Virus genome (UHGV): UHGV-0357162 | Origin: a virus | Length of the DNA stretch: 40,644 bases | Direction: 5' to 3' (one strand) | Part shown: in pieces, positions 5,057 to 17,008 of the stretch | Layout of the letters: each line of letters opens with the position of its first letter | Numbering within the stretch: the first letter of the stretch is position 1 | Position numbers and translations under genes: made by a program | The notes under the pieces: generated by a model | Seen by the model: the letters and a program-made list of their open reading frames with translations, nothing else | What the model was told of the DNA's origin: nothing | Databases searched by the model: none

Positions 5057-5190
5057 TCTTCTCAGAACCGGACTTCTTTCGAGCAATTTTAGAGCTTCCA
5101 CAATCCAGTCTCCTCCGCTAAAATTAATCACGGAAGACCTCCAAACATACGTAATTATCCCTTGCCTTATTCAAGGTCAGAAACAGAAAA

Positions 5191-5224
5191 CCCCGACTGG
5201 GCCAACAGTCGGGGTTTTCGTTTT
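5191..5224 (-). terminator. rho-independent terminator downstream of the spike-like gene
   Basis: Stem CCCCGACTG / CAGTCGGGG with 6-nt loop, A-run on one side and TTTTCGTTTT on the other (bidirectional architecture). Confidence 0.55.
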
Positions 5225-5970: not shown

Positions 5971-6965
5971 TACACCCTCGCCCAGTTCTCAGCATATGCC
6001 TCAAATACCGTCACCCAGGCATCGCCATCAGCTGTCAGATACGAACCAATGTGTCTGACCGATTTCACAAGAAATTTCCCGGTGAACGTGGTCGAATTTT
6101 TTGCGATAACGCTGGGTGCCGTTGTATTAGCCATCACAATCGACGCAGCGCCAGAATATAGCCCCTCCGGCAGTTTAACCACATCACCACATCTGATATC
6201 GCCTCTCATAGGACATTTGAAACTGACGGTAAACGGCGCTATCCATGTCGGCTGCCCGACCAGTTCATGGGCATGAATTGTTTTTGGCTCCCCCCACTTT
6301 GCTGACGCGTTATCGTAAATTCGTATTCTGTCGGAAAGAATACTGATGGCAATCCCGCTGTATTTCTCATCGCGCATCATTGCAATTGAAGCACTACGGA
6401 GGACCATAGCCAGCGAACCAATATCTTCGTAGGTTCCATTCCACGGTTCCGGCAAAACGAGGCTGTCGCTGACAGTACAATCGATCAACTTATTCGGAAA
6501 TGCCTTTTGCAACGCACGGAAGATTACATCACCAACCTTTTCCCCTTTAAGCCCCTCCCCCTCGATAGAGAACGGTTTACCATCATCTGTTTTGCGTACG
6601 GTTGGATTTATTACCAGGTTTAAGGTCTGGTTCGTGCCGATCCAGTTGGCATAGGCCAGATAAATTTCGCCATAAATAACCTCACCCTGTTGCTGTGGAT
6701 TTGCCAAAGGCAATCCCTCAACAAAGCCCGCTTTCATACGGACCAGACACCCCTGCAAACTCACGCTTTGCTTCAGCATGTCGATAGGCAAACCGTATAT
6801 TGTGAGCATCGTTCCTGAATTCACTACATCAAGACCCGCTACCTCTGTGGGGTAGTGATCAATTCTGGGCGGAGTTCGTGCAGCCTGGTAGAACCTGCAA
6901 GCCTTGTGTGGCGCGGGGTATGGTGATTTAGTGTGATTCTGGGCGGATTTGTGAGAAATGACCAA
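5970..6965 (-). CDS. baseplate hub-like protein, possibly 5'-truncated at the Mu-like prophage junction
   Basis: Track ORF starts at a TTG; the first ~28 codons (MVISHKSAQNHTKSPYPAPHKACRFY) look like translated non-coding DNA and overlap repeats 6863..6946; confident coding from about residue 30 (PRIDHYPTEVAGLDVV) or from M at 6809. Confidence 0.4.
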   Translation of the reverse strand: MVISHKSAQNHTKSPYPAPHKACRFYQAARTPPRIDHYPTEVAGLDVVNSGTMLTIYGLPIDMLKQSVSLQGCLVRMKAGFVEGLPLANPQQQGEVIYGEIYLAYANWIGTNQTLNLVINPTVRKTDDGKPFSIEGEGLKGEKVGDVIFRALQKAFPNKLIDCTVSDSLVLPEPWNGTYEDIGSLAMVLRSASIAMMRDEKYSGIAISILSDRIRIYDNASAKWGEPKTIHAHELVGQPTWIAPFTVSFKCPMRGDIRCGDVVKLPEGLYSGAASIVMANTTAPSVIAKNSTTFTGKFLVKSVRHIGSYLTADGDAWVTVFEAYAENWARV

Positions 6966-6996
6966 AAACGCTTTTTTTTGCGCTTTTTTCTGGGCG
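6863..6996 (+). repeat. three direct copies of a TTCTGGGCG(G) core with similar flanks; candidate transposase-binding end sites (attL-like) of the Mu-like prophage
   Basis: Copies at about 6863..6872, 6937..6946 and 6988..6996, the first two with GTGAT...TTCTGGGCGGAxTTxGTG context; located just outside the repressor gene where Mu L1-L3 sites would be. Confidence 0.3.
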
Positions 6997-7158
6997 CTTT
7001 TGATCTGGTTCTGCTACAAACTTAACGGGTTTTAAATGCTTTTAAAAAAGTGTTTTATCCTTACCCGTTTTCCTCAATTTGTTCTCATCTGTTGTGTTCG
7101 GTTTTGTTGTGGTTATTGCTGATTAGCTAACAGCACACGCCCCGCCAAAACGAGGCGC

Positions 7159-7806
7159 TTATGCTGATTTCTTGTTTACAGGCTTAGTTTCTTGCTCCGG
7201 TGTGACGGGAACGCGATCACCTGGTGTTCCAGCACAGAAAATGGCTTTGGCGCGGCGCAAAATCTCTTTGTCATTTTCCTCATCGCCAGCTAATGCCATG
7301 CAAACAGCGTCTTTAAGCGATTGCCTGATGTTCAGGCTTTGAATGGCCTTCCTTTGCTCCTCAAGTTCGCTATCGGCTTGCTTAGTTTGCCTGGTGGGTT
7401 GCTGTAGGCGTTCCAAGATTCCTTTAATGCCCATATCGCATATTGCACTTATCAGTTGTTCCTTATCTTCTGTGGACGCTCTTTTCAATAACTCGTTAAC
7501 TAGCTCGTTTGTAATATCGGGAGAAGGCTGCGCTGTTTGATTTGATAGAGAACCTTCTTTGGCGGTGGGTTCCTCACCATAAGCGAGCCAATTTAAGCTC
7601 ACTTGTTCTTTATCTGAGATAAGACAAGCTATTTTAAAAGAAGGCTCTGTTCCTTTATGAATGTAGTTGTTTAAGGTTGAAGGGGGGATTCCCCAATCAC
7701 TCGCAGCAGTTCTGACACTACGGTTACCTATCAGCTTTACTAAACGCTCTCTGAAACTTTCTTTTCCCTGGTCGACAAAAGAAAAAGCATCATCATTTCT
7801 AGTCAT
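7159..7806 (-). CDS. prophage repressor (Mu c position), HTH DNA-binding protein
   Basis: 215 aa, transcribed divergently from the ner-like gene; N-terminal helix-turn-helix-like region SVRTAASDWGIPPSTLNNYIHKG. Confidence 0.55.
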   Translation of the reverse strand: MTRNDDAFSFVDQGKESFRERLVKLIGNRSVRTAASDWGIPPSTLNNYIHKGTEPSFKIACLISDKEQVSLNWLAYGEEPTAKEGSLSNQTAQPSPDITNELVNELLKRASTEDKEQLISAICDMGIKGILERLQQPTRQTKQADSELEEQRKAIQSLNIRQSLKDAVCMALAGDEENDKEILRRAKAIFCAGTPGDRVPVTPEQETKPVNKKSA

Positions 7807-7939
7807 TTTTTCTTTCCTCTATAACTGATTGATTTTAATTGTAAAAACCATATAAAGACCAAAATCAAAAAGAAAATACAAAGAAAGAGCTATTTTTGCT
7901 TTACATGGGCTACATATGGATCAATACTTGTATCCGAAG

Positions 7940-7961
7940 GGATAACACGGCGGTGTTATCC
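7940..7961. promoter_or_regulatory. operator palindrome GGATAACAC-ggcg-GTGTTATCC, with additional GGATAAC half-sites at 7931..7935 and 7966..7972
   Basis: Perfect 9-4-9 inverted repeat in the repressor / ner-like intergenic region, immediately upstream of the ner-like start. Confidence 0.5.
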
Positions 7962-7988
7962 GCACGGATAACTTTTAAGGGTAACCTA

Positions 7989-8225
7989 ATGATGGTTAGA
8001 AATGAAGTAATGAACAAAGACTGGCACCGCGAGTACATCGTTGCCGCTGTGCACACCAAAGGTTTTACATTGCGTGAACTTTCTGAACGCGCTGGTCTAA
8101 AAAAAGACTCTTTAAAAAATGCACTGTATCGCTCATGCCCTAAATATGAACGCATCATAGCCGATGCTATTGGTGTGGAACCTGCGGAGATCTGGCCAAG
8201 CCGGTATGCCAGTAAGGCGGCGTAA
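7989..8225 (+). CDS. ner: Ner-like DNA-binding protein
   Basis: About 78 aa starting MMVRNEVMNKDWHREYIVAAVHTKGFTLRELSERAGL; position directly upstream of the transposase with TAATG overlap; the track N-terminal extension covers the operator. Confidence 0.7.
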   Translation: MMVRNEVMNKDWHREYIVAAVHTKGFTLRELSERAGLKKDSLKNALYRSCPKYERIIADAIGVEPAEIWPSRYASKAA

Positions 8226-10267
8226 TGTTTTATTCAGCCAATGAGCTGGCCGGTCTTCCTGGTTTGCCCGGTACAGTTCAGGGGGTGCGCTGGACGCTCA
8301 ATCGGATCACAGAGACGCACCCAGAATGGAAGCGCAAGCGCGAAGGCACCAAAGCATTCGAGTATCACATCGACTGCCTGCCCGCTGAAGCGCAGAAAGT
8401 TTTACGTAAGCGCCTGACTCATCAGGTCCTGGAAGATGCACAACTGCCCGCCGTAGTTGAGCAGAAAGCAGTTAAAAACGTCGCCGTTCGCGATGAACTG
8501 GAGGTGATGGTCAAATGCCCGGAGCTGGCATTACGCGAAGTCCAGTCACTGACCGACAAGCAAAAGGCCATCGCTGATGCGCGGATATTGCTGGCTACTG
8601 AAGTGCATAAGCTGCGCGAGTATGCCGGAATGACCAGGAAGGCCGCTTTAAAGCACATCGTTGATGGTGTGCGCATGGGGGCGTTACCTGACCGCATTAT
8701 CGAAGCAGCGAATACTGCAAATGCACGTCAGGGAAAGCGAACCGGTGTCAGCACCGGCAGCCTGGATAGCTGGTACTCCAGCTGGGTGATGGCGCGCGGT
8801 GATGCCAATCAGTTACTGGCGTTACTGGCTCCCGGTCATCATAAGGGAACACCGTGGGAGCAGGTCTGGTGGTTGAGCGATTTCTTTATGTTCTATCGCT
8901 CATGGAAGCGCCCGACTGTTGAATATGCGTATCGTGAGTTTTCAGCCTGGTGGCATGAAAAACACGCGAATGATGCGGGAATGCTGGCGGCACTGCCTTC
9001 AGTTCACGCAGTAAGACGGGTGTTAAGCAGCGTCCCGGTGATTGTTAAAGAGCGTTTCCGCTCCACCGGTTCAGCCTGGCGTTCGCTCAATCCCTTTGTG
9101 CGGCGCGACTGGACATCATTACCGGTTAATGCGGTATGGGTCGGGGATGGTCACTGTATGAAAATGACCGCGTTTAACCCCCTGACCGGCAATATTTTCC
9201 GGCCAGAAGTGACGCTGGTTATGGATGCGGGGCAACGCTTTGTTGTGGGCTGGTCACTGTCCCTGTCGGAGAACGTGATAGCCGTTGCTGATGCGTTACG
9301 TTACGGCATGGCGCAGCACGGGATACCGCTGATTTATTACTCCGATAACGGGGGCGGTGAAAAAAACCGGGTGCTTGATGCCGATATTACCGGGATTCTG
9401 CCCCGGCTGGGTGTGGAACATCACACGGGGATACCAGGTAACCCGCAGGGGCGCGGGGTGATTGAACGGGCAAACAAAGGAATACCCAAAGACGTGGCTC
9501 TGAGTTTCCAGACGTACTGCGCAAGGGATGCAGACAAGGAAACCGTAATGATGCAGCAACGGATTATGCAGTCAGCCATTAAGGCCACCCACAAAGGGAA
9601 AGAACTGACAAAACGGCAGGTTAAGGCGAGGGATGAAATCCCCACCTTTGAGCAACTGCTGGCAGCCATAGAGCTGGAGGTCAGACGCTATAACAACCGG
9701 CCACACAGCAGCCTACCCCGCAAAGAGGATGGCGAATATTACAGCCCGGCAGCGTATCGCCGGAAACTGATAAAAGAGCAGAATGTTGAAATTGATTTCC
9801 TGTCGCCGGAAGAACTGCATGAAATGTTCAGACCGGAAGTGACGCGCAAAACATTTCGCGGGGAAATTCAGTTATTCAACAATATTTATTACTCATATGA
9901 TCTGGCCGCAGAGCACGGGAATGAAGTCAGGGTCAGTTACGATATTCATGATGCAAACAGCGTCATTGTCCGGCGGGCTGATGGCTCTTATATCTGCGAT
10001 GCCATCTGGAACGGTAACAAGGTTGATGCCTTCGCTAAACCAGTTATCGAACAAAAACTGGAGAAACGCGTCAGGGGCCGCATTGCACGGGCTACGCAGA
10101 AAATCGAAGAGGCTAAACGCGAGCTTACCCCGGCTATTACGCAGAAGCCTGACTTTAATCTGGGATATGGACTGGAGCGCCCGGAGAAAAAGGAAAAAGA
10201 AGAACTTTATTTATTCGCATCTGAACGCGAGCGCAATTTAAAGAAAAACGGCACAAACAACCGTTAA
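8225..10267 (+). CDS. A: Mu A-type DDE transposase
   Basis: 680 aa; N-terminus ANELAGLPGLPGTVQGV resembles the MuA DNA-binding N-terminus; DDE-core-like VWVGDGHCMKM; followed by the MuB-like ATPase. Confidence 0.9.
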   Translation: MFYSANELAGLPGLPGTVQGVRWTLNRITETHPEWKRKREGTKAFEYHIDCLPAEAQKVLRKRLTHQVLEDAQLPAVVEQKAVKNVAVRDELEVMVKCPELALREVQSLTDKQKAIADARILLATEVHKLREYAGMTRKAALKHIVDGVRMGALPDRIIEAANTANARQGKRTGVSTGSLDSWYSSWVMARGDANQLLALLAPGHHKGTPWEQVWWLSDFFMFYRSWKRPTVEYAYREFSAWWHEKHANDAGMLAALPSVHAVRRVLSSVPVIVKERFRSTGSAWRSLNPFVRRDWTSLPVNAVWVGDGHCMKMTAFNPLTGNIFRPEVTLVMDAGQRFVVGWSLSLSENVIAVADALRYGMAQHGIPLIYYSDNGGGEKNRVLDADITGILPRLGVEHHTGIPGNPQGRGVIERANKGIPKDVALSFQTYCARDADKETVMMQQRIMQSAIKATHKGKELTKRQVKARDEIPTFEQLLAAIELEVRRYNNRPHSSLPRKEDGEYYSPAAYRRKLIKEQNVEIDFLSPEELHEMFRPEVTRKTFRGEIQLFNNIYYSYDLAAEHGNEVRVSYDIHDANSVIVRRADGSYICDAIWNGNKVDAFAKPVIEQKLEKRVRGRIARATQKIEEAKRELTPAITQKPDFNLGYGLERPEKKEKEELYLFASERERNLKKNGTNNR

Positions 10268-10285: not shown

Positions 10286-11179
10286 ATGAGTTTAATTACG
10301 CAATTAAATGACGTAATGGCCCGTCGCGGCTATACGCAGACCCACGTCGCCCGTGCTATTGGTCGTAGCAGCGCCGTTATCAACCAGTATTTACAGGGTA
10401 AATATCAGGGCGATATGGCTGATATTGAAGAACGCATTTCTGCCTTTGTGACCCGTGAGCGGGAAAAGGAAAACAGCCGCCGTATTAAAGCGAAATTTGT
10501 TGCCACCGGTATGGCTGCCAAAGGACTGGAAGTGCTGGCCTATGCTCACCTGGAATGTGAAATCTGCGTACTGTATGGCGCGGCAGGTCTTGGCAAAACA
10601 ATGATTCTGCGTGAATACGCCGCCAGAAACCGGGATGCGGTCCTGATTGAAGCTGACCCGGGCTATACAGCCAGAACACTGCTTGAGGAGCTGTGCCGCC
10701 AGCTGGGGGTAAAAGTTCGCGGCAATATCCACGAACTGATTGATGCATGTGTGCGAGAACTGCGTGATTCCGGTCGCCTGCTGATGGTGGACGAGGCTGA
10801 ACTGCTCCCCTATCGCGCACTGGAGGTTCTGCGCCGTCTGCATGACAAAGCGGGTATCGGGATTGTCCTGGCGGGTATGCCACGCCTTCTGATTAACCTC
10901 AAGGGACGTCGCGGTGAGTTCGCCCAGTTATACAGCCGTGTGGCGCTGGCGCTTAACCTGGGCGATACGCTGGCGCAGGAAGATTTTAACCAGATAGCCA
11001 CCGGGCTGATGCCGGAAGCAGCAGAACCGGAAATCAGCGAGGCGCTTTATACACGTTCGCTGGGTAATGCCCGCCGCCTGTTCAAACTGGCGCGTGGTGT
11101 GTACCGGATTTGTGATATCAGCGATGCACCGGTCAGTGTGCAGGCCATTGATAAATTCGCAGAAATGTTAATTCACTGA
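10286..11179 (+). CDS. B: Mu B-type AAA+ ATPase target DNA activator
   Basis: 297 aa; Walker A LYGAAGLGKT and Walker B LLMVDEAE; N-terminal HTH; immediately follows the transposase. Confidence 0.85.
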   Translation: MSLITQLNDVMARRGYTQTHVARAIGRSSAVINQYLQGKYQGDMADIEERISAFVTREREKENSRRIKAKFVATGMAAKGLEVLAYAHLECEICVLYGAAGLGKTMILREYAARNRDAVLIEADPGYTARTLLEELCRQLGVKVRGNIHELIDACVRELRDSGRLLMVDEAELLPYRALEVLRRLHDKAGIGIVLAGMPRLLINLKGRRGEFAQLYSRVALALNLGDTLAQEDFNQIATGLMPEAAEPEISEALYTRSLGNARRLFKLARGVYRICDISDAPVSVQAIDKFAEMLIH

Positions 11180-14533: not shown

Positions 14534-14710
14534 ATGAAAAACCGTAAAGCAAAACGACTTCTTTTACAGCGACCTGTGCGTGTAGTGGAGCTGGTTATCA
14601 GCAACCATAAGATAGCGGTACTCCATCCATTTGGTCAGGTGGCTTTTGCCGCAAAGCGTAAGCCTACTGCGTCACAGAACAGGCGGAATAAAGGGTACGC
14701 AGTACGATGA
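14534..14710 (+). CDS. small basic protein, tandem copy 1 (58 aa)
   Basis: MKNRKAKRLLLQRPVRVVELVISNHKIAVLHPFGQVAFAAKRKPTASQNRRNKGYAVR; AGGGGAA RBS; first 22 nt near-identical to copy 2. Confidence 0.3.
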   Translation: MKNRKAKRLLLQRPVRVVELVISNHKIAVLHPFGQVAFAAKRKPTASQNRRNKGYAVR

Positions 14711-14883
14711 AAAACCGTAAGGCAAAAATTCTGTTAGCTCGCAGAAACGGCTTTGATGTCTGGCGATGGTTGAGGATTAGTAACAGACGAGTGAGATTGA
14801 CGGGGTGTTGCGGGGTGATGGGGCACAGTTGTTGCAAAAAGCCCAGCGCGGCGCAAAACCGCAGGAAAAATCACGGTATGTAA
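14707..14883 (+). CDS. small basic Cys-rich protein, tandem copy 2 (58 aa)
   Basis: MKNRKAKILLARRNGFDVWRWLRISNRRVRLTGCCGVMGHSCCKKPSAAQNRRKNHGM; ATGA overlap with copy 1. Confidence 0.3.
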   Translation: MKNRKAKILLARRNGFDVWRWLRISNRRVRLTGCCGVMGHSCCKKPSAAQNRRKNHGM

Positions 14884-14895
14884 AGGAGGTACCAG

Positions 14896-15306
14896 GTGAA
14901 GAAAATGATTTTTGTGGCGGCATTGCTAACCATTACCCAACATACGCAGGCTTCAGCAGTTATTGTGGCATCTGCCGCTGCGACCACGGCTGCTGTAGCT
15001 GCTGCAAACTCTGCGAATATCGCAAGCCAACAGGAGCGGGATGCTGCTAACGCATCAGCCAGTGCTCTCCCGATTTCTGTTAAGGGCAGTAAGCAACATC
15101 TGGGGTTCATAACGTGCGGTAAGCGTTCTTATGAAGCTGTAGGCTCACTGGGATGTACGGTATATGGCGACAGTGAGAGCAGAGAAATTCCATGGAAAAC
15201 GTGGCCCGGATACGTTCTTGGCTCGAAGCTCCCGGCCAGTTATGAGGTAAACGCCGTGTCGTTTGATCACTATAACGGCGTGGCAACTGTCTATTTCACA
15301 TACTGA
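14896..15306 (+). CDS. secreted protein with signal peptide (moron-like)
   Basis: GTG start after AAGGAGG RBS; MKKMIFVAALLTITQHTQASA signal peptide; Ala/Thr-rich linker; two Cys pairs. Confidence 0.5.
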   Translation: MKKMIFVAALLTITQHTQASAVIVASAAATTAAVAAANSANIASQQERDAANASASALPISVKGSKQHLGFITCGKRSYEAVGSLGCTVYGDSESREIPWKTWPGYVLGSKLPASYEVNAVSFDHYNGVATVYFTY

Positions 15307-15411
15307 GGCCCGGCATGAAATTTTCTGAATCACGGAGCAACAACACGATGAAAGCCATCACCGTAACTCGACGTTCCTGATTTCGCGGGTTGTTTAAACA
15401 GTAATCAAATG

Positions 15412-15457
15412 CAGACCAAAACATGTGTTTTGGTCTGCCAAAAGTGATGTTTTGGTC
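15412..15457. promoter_or_regulatory. operator-like array: perfect 26-bp palindrome CAGACCAAAACATGTGTTTTGGTCTG plus a third TGTTTTGGTC half-site 11 bp downstream
   Basis: Perfect dyad 15412..15437 and direct repeat 15448..15457, spaced about two helical turns; overlaps the start of the next ORF. Confidence 0.4.
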
Positions 15458-15739
15458 ATTATGAAGATTGAACAAATCGGAATGGCAGCTTTCAGGCAAC
15501 AGGCTGAAAGCGGTGGCGTGGATGAGTTCGTCGTGCAGCGGTTCGGTGGTGTGTATCACCTCTTCGCTGTGAATCGCCACGCCGGGGTGTCCTATTTTCT
15601 ACAGGAACGCCGTGGCGATTACAAGACGTGGCTGTCTCTTGATCGTGCCGCCACGTTCCTGTCAGGAATTGGCGTTTCACGTTTTACCGTGCGTTTTGAG
15701 GATAACAAACATGCTGAAAAAGATGATCGGAGCCATTAA
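15425..15739 (+). CDS. hypothetical protein (start uncertain: GTG 15425 or ATG 15461)
   Basis: Track ORF; the 5' end overlaps the palindrome, so ATG 15461 (MKIEQIG) may be the real start. Confidence 0.35.
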   Translation: MFWSAKSDVLVIMKIEQIGMAAFRQQAESGGVDEFVVQRFGGVYHLFAVNRHAGVSYFLQERRGDYKTWLSLDRAATFLSGIGVSRFTVRFEDNKHAEKDDRSH

Positions 15740-16106
15740 AGCCGGTCAGGCGTATCTGGGGTGGGATGATGTCCTTTATCGCCAGACGCTGGCCCGCCTG
15801 ACCGGTAAAACCAGCACCACACGCTGCAACCTCGATGAACTGCGCATCATCCGGGAATACATGCACGAACAGGGATTTCCGCGCAAGGCCCCCGCCGGTA
15901 AAGGTCGCCGCCCTCGTGTTGCAATGAGCAGAAAATCGGTATTATCCAAAATTGAAGCGTTGCTGGCTGATGCCGGTCGTTCCTGGGCGTATGCAGAAGG
16001 ACTGGCATCTCACATGTATAAGCAACATGTGATCGAATGGCTGACGGATGAACAGCTTTTTGGGGTGATGGTGGCGCTGGTTAAAGATTCAAGGAGACGT
16101 AAATGA
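15711..16106 (+). CDS. gemA: GemA-like (Mu gp16 family, DUF1018) protein
   Basis: Start MLKKMIGAIKAGQAYLGWDDVLYRQTLARLTGKTS matches the conserved N-terminal pattern of GemA/gp16-family proteins; the longer track ORF starts at 15612. Confidence 0.55.
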   Translation: MLKKMIGAIKAGQAYLGWDDVLYRQTLARLTGKTSTTRCNLDELRIIREYMHEQGFPRKAPAGKGRRPRVAMSRKSVLSKIEALLADAGRSWAYAEGLASHMYKQHVIEWLTDEQLFGVMVALVKDSRRRK

Positions 16107-16441
16107 AAAAACTGTTATTACTTATTCTGGCTTTATGTTTTACAGGAATATCCCATGCTTCTGATTCTGAGGAAGATTTGATCAAAAAAACATTACAGGG
16201 CGATTATCAGGCACAACGTAATCTGGCTTATTCATACATGAATGGCTGGGATGATATTTCAAAGGATACCATCAGAGGATGCGCTCTCAGGAAGGTTATT
16301 CTCTTAACACAAGCCCAAGCTGACATTGGCGATTATGGAAATGAAGCCATAGATTGCCGAAAAGTGCATCCAACAGATAACCAGAAAGTATGGGAGTATG
16401 TCAGAGGATACCTGGTGTTGATAAACGAGAATAAAAAATAA
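16103..16441 (+). CDS. secreted small protein with signal peptide (moron)
   Basis: MKKLLLLILALCFTGISHA signal peptide; AT-rich; followed by its own terminator. Confidence 0.5.
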   Translation: MKKLLLLILALCFTGISHASDSEEDLIKKTLQGDYQAQRNLAYSYMNGWDDISKDTIRGCALRKVILLTQAQADIGDYGNEAIDCRKVHPTDNQKVWEYVRGYLVLINENKK

Positions 16442-16453
16442 TATGAACAAAAA

Positions 16454-16477
16454 CCTTCGCAAACGCGGAGGTTTTTT
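16454..16477 (+). terminator. rho-independent terminator after the secreted-protein moron
   Basis: CCTTCGC-aaac-GCGGAGG stem (one G-U pair) followed by TTTTTT. Confidence 0.5.
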
Positions 16478-16483
16478 ATGGTC

Positions 16484-16511
16484 TGTACAGGCGATCATGT
16501 ATGGCTATAAT
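16484..16511 (+). promoter_or_regulatory. candidate sigma70 promoter for the mor-like gene
   Basis: TGTACA, 16-nt spacer, TATAAT, about 30 nt upstream of the ATG at 16541. Confidence 0.3.
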
Positions 16512-16540: not shown

Positions 16541-17008
16541 ATGCAGACCTTCAGTGAAACAGATCTTCGCGATGCGCAGGCACTGCTGCCCGATTCCGTG
16601 CAGCAACTGATTAGCGTGATTGGCTTCCCCGCCCTGACCCGGTTAATCCGTTCTTTTGGTGGCGTGACGTTAAGCGGTAAAACCGGCGCACACGCCGAAC
16701 GCACCGGCGGCGTCCATGCCCTGTTACATGATGTTCTGACCGAAGACGAAATCAACAAACTGATCCGCTTTCTTGGCGGTGCTCCGTTTTACATTCCCCG
16801 TTGCGATCATGCGTTACGTGCCCTGCGTAACACCCGTTTTATGGCTGATTTACAGCAGCATGTAAAAGACGGATGCTCACACCGGCAGGCGCTGGCACTG
16901 CTCTGTCCCCGTTACGGCATTTCAGACCGGTACGCATGGCAGCTGATACACCGACGACAAAAACAGACTTCGCTGAAAAGCCCCACCCAGGTGGGGCTTT
17001 TTGATTAA
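16541..17008 (+). CDS. mor: Mor/C-family transcriptional activator
   Basis: 155 aa; position after the GemA-like gene; C-terminal HTH-like region (RQALALLCPRYGISDRYAWQLIHRRQ) as in the Mu Mor/C family. Confidence 0.6.
   Translation: MQTFSETDLRDAQALLPDSVQQLISVIGFPALTRLIRSFGGVTLSGKTGAHAERTGGVHALLHDVLTEDEINKLIRFLGGAPFYIPRCDHALRALRNTRFMADLQQHVKDGCSHRQALALLCPRYGISDRYAWQLIHRRQKQTSLKSPTQVGLFD

What the first reader, a model, noticed from the sequence alone, without database searches (positions are those of the whole stretch)
15412..15457. Perfect 26-bp palindrome plus a third half-site: operator-like array in front of the GemA-like region
CAGACCAAAACATGTGTTTTGGTCTG is a perfect dyad and is followed 11 bp later by a third TGTTTTGGTC copy, giving about 21 bp centre-to-centre spacing as in cooperative operators. 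It has no downstream T-run, so it is unlikely to be a terminator. It overlaps the start of ORF 15425..15739 and precedes the GemA-like and Mor/C genes, suggesting a dedicated DNA-binding regulator controls entry into the middle/late programme.
Basis: seen in the sequence. Interest (0 to 1): 0.5.

Follow-up and report, generated by a model that had tools for sequence, protein, structure and literature searches.

The report
Conserved double dyad before Mu-like ORF
A strongly conserved pair of short inverted repeats sits directly in front of a small gene of unknown function in the early operon of an E. coli Mu-like prophage; it is a real functional element tied to that one gene, but there is no evidence that it switches on the phage's middle/late programme.

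Summary
The repeat is real but slightly misdescribed. In this window it has 13-bp arms (15411-15423 / 15426-15438) around a non-palindromic TG centre. Many relatives have CATATG there, which makes a perfect palindrome. The "third half-site" (15448-15457) is the right arm of a second dyad, so the element is two units, CCAAAA-N6-TTTTGG, 22 bp apart. The second unit ends 5 nt before the ATG (15461) of a 92-aa ORF.

Across 26 distinct haplotypes the four core hexamers never vary. By comparison, 54% of third-codon positions and 9 of 12 centre positions vary. At least four unrelated left flanks join at its edge.

Diverged Mu-like relatives keep the same two-unit, 22-nt layout in front of the same ORF. 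Phages with GemA but without this ORF lack it.

The element persists in relatives with different repressor, Ner and transposase N-terminal regions. It has no copy at late operons and no sigma-70 promoter match nearby in this window. The ORF's predicted fold has no helix-turn-helix.

My best reading (0.4) is an RNA-level leader element controlling translation or processing of this ORF. A tandem DNA operator remains a serious rival (0.3). Interest is modest.

The parts
15411..15438 (+). Distal dyad P1: arms GCAGACCAAAACA / TGTTTTGGTCTGC around a TG centre. Core hexamers are CCAAAA (15416-15421) and TTTTGG (15428-15433). As RNA it forms a 12-bp stem with a 4-nt loop.
   Evidence: I4: 13 nt, 100% complementary. 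(centroid hairpin -19.2 kcal/mol; 76-nt fold z -3.9). (cores invariant; centre variable at 5 of 6 positions). (5 pairs with changes on both sides across lineages).
15438..15455 (+). Proximal dyad P2: CCAAAA-GTGATG-TTTTGG, 22 bp from P1 centre to centre. It covers positions -23 to -6 of the ORF-92 start.
   Evidence: 0 mismatches. (D4: 22-nt direct repeat spacing). (arms invariant; centre variable at 4 of 6 positions). A dyad only in the E. coli lineage.
15448..15457 (+). The 'third half-site' TGTTTTGGTC, an exact copy of 15426-15435. It can pair either with 15438-15443 (P2) or with 15414-15423 (long alternative hairpin).
   Evidence: (I1: 20-nt arms, 85% complementary). (alternative long hairpin -21.8 kcal/mol against an MFE of -22.6).
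15393..15410 (+). A-rich leader immediately 5' of P1. It is loosely similar in all four flank types (AAAYARYAAYCAA...), and it is T-rich on the - strand.
   Evidence: aligned flanks. (the - strand terminator-like call depends on it).
15461..15739 (+). ORF-92, a 92-aa protein of unknown function (phrog_7844, no Pfam family). It is the only gene that always accompanies the element, and it has no canonical Shine-Dalgarno sequence in this lineage.
   Evidence: PGAP start.. (variable sites by codon position 13/8/50, so it is a protein under purifying selection). (confident model, eL38-like fold, no HTH).
15447..15464 (+). Five-codon upstream ORF (ATG/GTG-TTT-TGG-TCA-TTA-TGA). Its stop codon overlaps the ORF-92 ATG (ATGA). 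Possible termination-reinitiation coupling; speculative.
   Evidence: Read from the sequence. Position 15447 is only A or G in relatives, so a start codon is always present.

Best explanation
The element is the cis-acting leader of the 92-aa early gene (15461-15739). I think it acts mainly at the RNA level, within the long rightward early transcript of this Mu-like prophage.

Proposed mechanism:
- The transcribed sequence forms a strong 12-bp hairpin (P1, 15411-15438). This abuts a second, weaker pairing (P2) that covers positions -23 to -6 of a start codon lacking a normal Shine-Dalgarno sequence.
- Because TGTTTTGGTC occurs twice, the left arm of P1 can pair with either copy. This gives two nearly isoenergetic folds. 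In one, P1 forms and the ribosome-binding region is only weakly paired. In the other, a long hairpin locks the ribosome-binding region.
- This would set or switch translation of ORF-92. P1 could also mark a processing or stability boundary for the distal ORF-92-GemA-Mor part of the early mRNA.
- The invariant CCAAAA/UUUUGG cores, repeated in both units and kept across lineages, suggest that a sequence-specific factor reads them. ORF-92 itself is a possible candidate.

Shown: the anatomy, the selection on the cores, the linkage to ORF-92, the fixed position at the translation start, and the energetics.
Inferred: that the RNA is the active form, the switch, and any trans-acting factor.
For: (1) Function is real. 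In 26 distinct haplotypes, 0 of 24 core positions vary, against 50 of 93 third-codon positions (Fisher p 2e-7) and 9 of 12 centre positions.
(2) Linkage to ORF-92. At least four unrelated left flanks join at 15409-15412. In 5426 complete E. coli genomes the element occurs only in this context, in 58 genomes. GemA/Mor phages without ORF-92 lack it.
(3) Position locked to the translation start. In 8 lineages with 58-98% protein identity, the proximal unit ends 1-6 nt before the ATG. In Leminorella-type phages the whole element overlaps the 3' end of the upstream gene, which leaves only 15 nt of intergenic DNA and no room for a promoter.
(4) No sigma-70 promoter match at the element in the window.
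(5) RNA energetics. The 76-nt fold is -23.9 kcal/mol, z -3.9, with 0 of 200 shuffles as stable. The alternative long hairpin is -21.8 against an MFE of -22.6 kcal/mol.
(6) Substitutions outside the cores keep pairing on the + strand. These are 15415 A>G (G.U), 15412 C>T (U.G) and 15422 C>T (U.G). In E2348/69 the pair 15422:15427 changed from C:G to A:T. Across lineages, 13 cells show changes on both sides, against 5.0 +/- 1.8 in shuffles.
Against: - In diverged relatives the predicted hairpins are weak (z -0.9 to -1.5). P2 is not a helix there at all.
- What is conserved across lineages is sequence (ACCAAA...TTTGGT in both units), not just complementarity. That fits recognition by a dimeric DNA-binding protein equally well.
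- A>G or C>T changes that keep RNA pairing are never seen inside the core hexamers (0 of 12 left-arm core positions). Structure alone therefore does not explain the constraint.
- Symmetric changes in a palindrome are also expected if a cognate dimer co-evolves with its site.
- G.U-type changes show no clear strand bias: 3 variant types favour the + strand and 2 favour the - strand.
- No Rfam family matches.
- There are no transcript, probing or binding data.
Confidence: 0.4

Rival explanations
1. Tandem DNA operator. Two dyads (CCAAAA-N6-TTTTGG, or more broadly ACCAAA-N8-TTTGGT) lie 22 bp apart on roughly the same helix face. A dimer-of-dimers would bind them cooperatively. The binder would most simply be ORF-92 acting as an autoregulator, or a host factor. 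It would act as a repressor of a weak local promoter or as a roadblock inside the early operon.
For: - Identical core hexamers in both units are invariant, while the centres vary freely.
- The same half-site sequence and 22-nt period are kept in lineages with only 58-74% ORF-92 identity, where flanking DNA cannot be aligned.
- Pairing-preserving transitions are absent from the cores.
- The phage's c-ner region uses a comparable design, two TATCC-N4-GGATA dyads.
- Weak promoter-like matches (9/12) lie 10-30 bp upstream of P1 in two flank types.
Against: - No promoter match in the window's own flank. The 9/12 matches elsewhere are at chance frequency (about 1.1 per 800 bp in shuffles).
- In Leminorella-type phages the element lies inside the end of the upstream gene.
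- ORF-92 has no recognisable DNA-binding fold.
- The proximal unit is not a dyad outside the E. coli lineage.
- There is only one site per phage genome.
- The binder is not c, Ner or the transposase N-terminal domain. It is not tied to GemA. It is not Mor, because there are no copies at late operons.
Confidence: 0.3
2. Minus-strand (antisense) intrinsic terminator. On the - strand the P1 hairpin is followed by a T-rich tract and would stop leftward transcription entering the early region.
For: The scan calls it terminator-like on the - strand in three different flank types. The A-rich + strand leader is loosely conserved in all flank types.
Against: - The T-tract is poor and interrupted: ATTTGATT, GCTTGATT, TTGGTTAT.
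- No leftward gene or conserved leftward promoter lies to the right.
- It does not explain the second dyad, the invariant cores of P2, or the fixed distance to the ORF-92 ATG.
Confidence: 0.07
3. Binding site of a Mor/C-type activator at an activator-dependent promoter. The P1 centre lies about 44.5 bp upstream of a start predicted from the -10-like hexamer CATTAT (15457-15462).
For: The geometry resembles the 16-bp imperfect dyad centred at -43.5 described for Mu C and Mor promoters (PMC2582627). CATTAT has A at position 2 and T at position 6 (read).
Against: - The predicted start would fall inside ORF-92, after its ATG.
- The -10-like hexamer is not conserved in diverged relatives.
- No similar dyad precedes the lysis, head or tail operons in the window, where the only Mor-family activator must act.
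- mor lies downstream of the site.
Confidence: 0.04
4. A largely mutational product. An older imperfect dyad was 'corrected' into a long perfect palindrome by template switching, and its half-site was copied. It is kept as a recombination junction between modules, with no regulatory role.
For: - Perfect symmetry through the centre (CATATG) is needed by neither an RNA loop nor an operator spacer.
- An exact 10-nt copy of the arm exists.
- Mosaic joints lie at the left edge.
- Quasipalindrome correction is an established mutational mechanism in E. coli (my own knowledge).
Against: The cores are far more conserved than synonymous sites (p 2e-7). The layout is kept in distant lineages. A mutational origin for the perfection may still hold alongside a function.
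Confidence: 0.05

Closest known systems
Tandem dyad operators of temperate phages (lambda OR/OL; D108/Mu Ner sites; this phage's own c-ner dyads)
   Same: Two or more dyad-symmetric sites with conserved half-sites and free centres, spaced by about two helical turns. This suggests cooperative binding of dimers.
   Different: Those operators overlap promoters and have an adjacent HTH regulator. Here there is no promoter match in the window, the site abuts a start codon inside an operon, and the linked protein has no HTH. The comparison with lambda and Ner rests on my own knowledge.
Phage translational operators and leader hairpins (Mu Com-mom, T4 RegA/gp32, MS2 coat-replicase hairpin)
   Same: Structure placed at or just upstream of a ribosome-binding site. 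In Mu com-mom, a protein binding an upstream hairpin changes an inhibitory pairing over the start region. The two alternative folds found here would allow the same logic.
   Different: No binding protein is identified. The sequences are unrelated. Hairpins are weak in diverged relatives. The comparison is from my own knowledge; membership was not tested.
RNase III / RNase E processing and stabiliser hairpins in phage polycistronic early mRNAs (T7 early region, lambda N leader)
   Same: A strong intercistronic hairpin preceded by an A/U-rich single-stranded tract, at the boundary of a conserved distal gene block.
   Different: A 12-bp stem is short for RNase III. There are no cleavage data. The invariant repeated hexamers are not explained by processing alone.
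Mor/C activator sites of Mu middle and late promoters
   Same: Imperfect dyad roughly 44 bp upstream of a -10-like hexamer (PMC2582627).
   Different: The start would fall inside the ORF. There are no copies at late operons, and the -10-like hexamer is not conserved.
Lambdoid origin iterons (for example phi80 gp15 sites)
   Same: A-tract-containing dyads repeated every 21-22 bp (annotated sites, sequence).
   Different: The only BLAST similarity to phi80 lies in the coding part of the O-like gene, away from the annotated iterons. This phage replicates by transposition and has no O-like initiator.

Membership tests
Tandem repressor operator | Dyad-symmetric sites with conserved half-sites | tested here: met
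   CCAAAA-N6-TTTTGG twice. The cores are invariant and the centres variable.
Tandem repressor operator | Sites overlap or adjoin a promoter (-35/-10) | tested here: not met
   no sigma-70-like match near 15380-15470 in the window; only chance-level 9/12 matches in two other flank types.
Tandem repressor operator | Cognate DNA-binding protein encoded nearby | tested here: inconclusive
c repressor / Ner / transposase-enhancer site of this phage | The site co-varies with the immunity region and resembles its operators | tested here: not met
   the element is identical in relatives with a different c N-terminal part, c-ner region, ner and A N-terminus. The c-ner dyads are TATCC-N4-GGATA.
Transposase end-type binding site | Resembles the repeats at the prophage end | tested here: not met
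   the left end is at 6847 and its repeats are ATTCTGGGCGGAKTT, unlike the element.
Mor/C activator-dependent promoter | Dyad centred near -43.5 with a -10 hexamer, and the same site present at late operons | tested here: not met
   The geometry is roughly met with CATTAT. However, there is no other copy with up to 2 mismatches in 40.6 kb, and the -10-like hexamer is not conserved. Family definition taken from PMC2582627.
Intrinsic terminator | G+C-rich stem followed directly by a U-tract on the transcribed strand | tested here: not met
   On the + strand the stem is followed by CCAAAAGTG. On the - strand there is a weak terminator-like call.
Cis-regulatory RNA structure at a translation start | Folds more stably than shuffled sequence and overlaps the ribosome-binding region | tested here: met
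   (z -3.9, 0 of 200 shuffles as stable). P2 and the third half-site cover -23 to -4. One search shows two near-isoenergetic folds.
Cis-regulatory RNA structure at a translation start | Base pairs kept through compensatory change across relatives | tested here: inconclusive
   P1 has 5 pairs with changes on both sides (13 cells against 5.0 +/- 1.8 in shuffles). The core pairs never vary, P2 shows no covariation, and palindromic protein sites can give the same signal.
Known RNA families (Rfam 15) | Match reaching a family's gathering score | tested here: not met
   the best overlapping hit scores 18.2 bits against a gathering score of 55.8 (E 2.8).
Dispersed palindromic repeat (REP/MITE-like) | Many copies per genome in varied contexts | tested here: not met
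   one site per prophage, found in 58 of 5426 E. coli genomes, always in front of ORF-92; no other copy in the window.

The most novel reading that the evidence does not exclude
ORF-92, a small protein family with an eL38-like fold that is absent from isolated phages, is a sequence-specific nucleic-acid-binding autoregulator. It would read the repeated CCAAAA/UUUUGG motifs in its own leader and flip the leader between an open fold and a locked fold. That would make it a new kind of phage post-transcriptional, or unconventional DNA-binding, regulator.
Probability: 0.12. Interest if true: 0.55.

Novelty: new member of a known kind. Interest (0 to 1): 0.3.

Why it matters
If the RNA reading is right, this is a compact, testable example of leader-based control inside the poorly understood accessory early region of transposable phages. 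It comes with a natural series of variants to exploit. If the DNA reading is right, it defines the site of an unidentified regulator. In either case it affects one accessory gene of unknown function. The evidence argues against it being the switch into middle or late development, so its wider importance is limited.

Tried and rejected
1. c repressor, Ner or transposase-enhancer site. Rejected: the element is identical in heteroimmune relatives. GACCAAAA also occurs at 6960 and 7857, but only in some immunity or left-end types, and it is not part of the end repeats.
2. Transposase end-type site. Rejected.
3. GemA-linked site. Rejected: VW-6B and ST405-OXA48phi1.1 have GemA and Mor but no dyad.
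4. Lambdoid ori iteron. The phi80, HK225 and mEp237 hits lie in O-gene coding sequence, not in the annotated iterons.
5. Coding N-terminal extension from 15425. Rejected because the start codon is not conserved.
6. Proximal-unit motif CCAAAATAAYCGGAWTGG elsewhere in IMG/VR. Of 16 hits, only one is the ORF-92 family; the rest are unrelated coding matches.
7. GACCAAAA-N6-TTTTGGTC elsewhere in IMG/VR. The single hits are at about chance level. One high-GC contig has many copies of its own palindrome, apparently unrelated.
8. Searches that yielded little or nothing:
   - Rfam: nothing.
   - The genome and metagenome scans added only two useful diverged loci.
   - ORF-92 is absent from 50,697 phage records.
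   - The afdb50 fold library was unavailable.
   - Literature searches found nothing on this element.
9. Strand bias of G.U-compatible changes. Too few events to decide.

Full report
**Context.** The window holds an E. coli Mu-like transposable prophage.
- The left end is a TG at 6847, followed by three ATTCTGGGCGGAKTT repeats.
- The gene order is a P2/186 CI-type repressor (7159-7806, minus strand), a Ner-like wHTH gene, transposase A (8225-10267) and B (10286-11179).
- A variable accessory early region follows, then GemA (15711-16106) and a Mor-family activator (16541-17008), then lysis and morphogenesis genes.
- The finding lies in the 154-nt gap between a moron (14896-15306) and a 92-aa ORF (15461-15739) that overlaps the start of gemA.

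**The observation.**
- The quoted 26-mer is at 15412-15437. Its centre, CATGTG, is not self-complementary. The true description is 13-bp arms (15411-15423 / 15426-15438) around a TG centre.
- Most relatives have CATATG, which does give a perfect 26-bp palindrome.
- The third TGTTTTGGTC is exact at 15448-15457. With CCAAAA at 15438-15443 it forms a second dyad.
- The element is therefore two units, CCAAAA-N6-TTTTGG, at 15416-15433 and 15438-15455, with centres 22 bp apart.
- The second unit ends 5 nt before ATG 15461.
- This is far beyond chance. No other exact copy of the 10-mer exists in 40.6 kb. A 13-bp perfect inverted repeat exceeds the maximum of 7-11 bp seen in 60 Markov simulations.

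**Where the gene starts.**
- The mechanical ORF begins at GTG 15425, inside the palindrome.
- That codon is ATG, GTG, GTT, GTA, ACG or ATT in relatives, and the intervening codons change non-synonymously.
- PGAP calls the 279-nt ORF from the equivalent of 15461 in most of the annotated relatives examined; one record (L123) has the longer 315-nt ORF.
- ORF-92 is a real protein gene. Among 26 distinct haplotypes, variable sites by codon position are 13, 8 and 50.
- In this lineage it lacks a canonical Shine-Dalgarno sequence; the upstream sequence is TTTTGGTCATT-ATG.

**Selection on the element.** I collected 58 close loci from E. coli genomes, IMG/VR and metagenomes, giving 26 distinct 331-nt haplotypes.
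- The four core hexamers show 0 variable positions out of 24.
- By comparison, 50 of 93 third-codon positions vary (Fisher p 2e-7), as do 9 of the 12 centre positions (p 2e-6).
- Outside the cores, the few arm changes are 15411 G>A, 15412 C>T, 15415 A>G and 15422 C>T. The innermost pair, 15422:15427, is C:G, U:G, C:U, C:A or, in strain E2348/69, A:T.

**Linkage.**
- At least four unrelated left flanks, carrying different upstream accessory genes, meet the conserved sequence at 15409-15412. Only a loosely similar A-rich stretch precedes it.
- In 5426 complete E. coli genomes the 52-nt element is found in 58 genomes, always at this position.
- ORF-92 homologues are rare and are absent from 50,697 phage records.
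- Diverged Mu-like relatives come from Leminorella, Erwinia psidii, Intestinirhabdus alba and several uncultured sources, with 58-74% protein identity. They keep two 20-nt units with the same 22-nt period, ending 1-6 nt before the ATG.
  - The distal unit is ACCAAA-N8-TTTGGT, a good dyad in four of these lineages.
  - The proximal unit is ACCAAAATAAYCGGAWTGGY. It is not a dyad, and its GGA is a plausible Shine-Dalgarno sequence.
- In the Leminorella type, only 15 nt separate the upstream gene from ORF-92, so the element overlaps coding sequence.
- More distant family members (30-47% identity) sit in non-Mu elements and do not share the motif.
- Two Mu-like phages with GemA and Mor but no ORF-92 have no such dyad within the roughly 2.5 kb upstream of gemA that was searched.
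- The element therefore belongs to ORF-92, not to GemA or Mor.

**Who could bind it.**
- The element is unchanged in relatives whose repressor N-terminal part, c-ner region, ner gene and transposase N-terminus are different. The c-ner region uses different dyads, TATCC-N4-GGATA. This excludes c, Ner and the enhancer-binding domain of A.
- The end repeats are unrelated.
- A Mor/C-type site should recur at late operons. None exists with up to 2 mismatches.

**Promoters and terminators.**
- No sigma-70-like promoter is found near the element in the window.
- In two other flank types, 9/12 matches lie 10-30 bp upstream of P1, at the frequency expected by chance.
- On the + strand there is no U-tract. 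On the - strand the hairpin is followed by a modest T-rich tract in three flank types.
- mor is preceded by its own terminator-like hairpin and a TGTACA-16-TATAAT match.

**RNA view.**
- The + strand folds to -23.9 kcal/mol (z -3.9), with a 12-bp P1 stem.
- Because the right arm is duplicated, a long alternative hairpin is possible. It pairs 15414-15424 with 15447-15457 and encloses 15428-15433:15438-15443. Its energy is -21.8 kcal/mol, close to the MFE of -22.6. It would bury positions -14 to -4 of the start region.
- Across 19 distinct sequences, P1 has 5 pairs with changes on both sides (13 cells against 5.0 +/- 1.8 in shuffles). The core pairs never vary, and P2 is a helix only in the E. 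coli lineage.
- In diverged relatives the folds are not better than shuffles.
- No Rfam family matches.

**Interpretation.**
- Firm conclusions: the element is functional, belongs to ORF-92, and sits on its translation start.
- Points favouring an RNA-level leader (translation control, possibly with a processing or stability role; confidence 0.4):
  - the lack of any promoter;
  - the fixed distance to the ATG, even where the element overlaps an upstream gene;
  - the missing Shine-Dalgarno sequence;
  - the bistable fold.
- Points keeping a tandem DNA operator alive (confidence 0.3):
  - the same hexamers are repeated in both units and are conserved as sequence across lineages;
  - pairing-preserving transitions are never seen inside them;
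  - the spacing is about two helical turns.
  Either way these features point to a sequence-specific reader.
- Minor rivals are an antisense terminator (0.07), a Mor-type site (0.04) and a mainly mutational palindrome (0.05). The remainder is unassigned.
The proposed role as gatekeeper of the middle/late programme is not supported.

**Novelty and interest.** This is an uncharacterised instance of a familiar kind of element, a leader hairpin or operator-like dyad pair in front of a phage accessory gene. It would not greatly surprise a specialist. Its value is as a clean test case, because natural variants already separate cores from spacers. Interest is 0.3.

Noticed in passing
window 16453-16511: Downstream of the 112-aa moron (16103-16441) there is a terminator-like hairpin, CCTTCGC-AAAC-GCGGAGG, followed by T6. 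Next comes a sigma-70-like TGTACA-16-TATAAT (10/12), whose -35 lies in the 8-bp palindrome CTGTACAG, 30 nt before mor. mor may therefore have its own regulated promoter.
   Followed up: partly
window 16976-17008: A perfect 12-bp inverted repeat, AAAAGCCCCACC / GGTGGGGCTTTT, followed by TTGATT, lies at the 3' end of mor. It is a likely terminator of the early operon, comparable to Mu t9.2.
   Followed up: no
window 14534-14883: Two tandem paralogous 58-aa ORFs, both starting MKNRKAK and both matching phrog_1380. The stop codon of the first overlaps the start codon of the second.
   Followed up: no
window 6847-7002: The prophage left end (TG at 6847) was inferred from where homology to other insertions begins. 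Three ATTCTGGGCGGAKTT repeats at 6862, 6936 and 6988 are candidate transposase-binding sites.
   Followed up: partly
window 7931-7970: An 18-nt inverted repeat contains two TATCC-N4-GGATA dyads in the c-ner regulatory region, probably the immunity operators. The mechanical ner ORF (TTG 7896) probably starts later.
   Followed up: no
window 6960-6967 and 7857-7864: The only GACCAAAA copies outside the element lie in the left-end region and the c-ner intergenic region. They are present only in some left-end or immunity types, so this is probably coincidence.
   Followed up: yes
L064-L095 (IMGVR_UViG_3300035661_000038, 82 kb): A high-GC viral contig carries at least 16 copies of the palindrome GACCAAAARGYRCCTTTTGGTC, often flanked by GAC/GTC. 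It is a dispersed repeat with the same outer octamers as the element here. It is unexplained and apparently unrelated.
   Followed up: partly
window 5186-5219: A 14-bp perfect inverted repeat, AAAACCCCGACTGG...CAGTCGGGGTTTT, followed by a T-run lies outside the prophage. It is probably a host bidirectional terminator.
   Followed up: no
window 14896-15306: A 136-aa signal-peptide-like moron (phrog_8805). The query stretch 14900-15325, which covers it, is 78% identical at nucleotide level to Escherichia phage Av-05, an unrelated 121-kb phage. It is absent from many relatives of this prophage.
   Followed up: no
L035-L038: Distant ORF-92 family members (30-47% identity) occur outside Mu-like phages, in Yersinia and Vibrio. 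Their neighbours include integrases, a replicase/PriCT gene, an Hha-like gene and a UvrD-like helicase. Several have unrelated short inverted repeats about 40 nt upstream of the start.
   Followed up: partly
L008 and L010: Two relatives have a frameshifted ORF-92, in one case fused with gemA, yet keep the element. L010 has a 1-nt deletion in the P1 centre.
   Followed up: no
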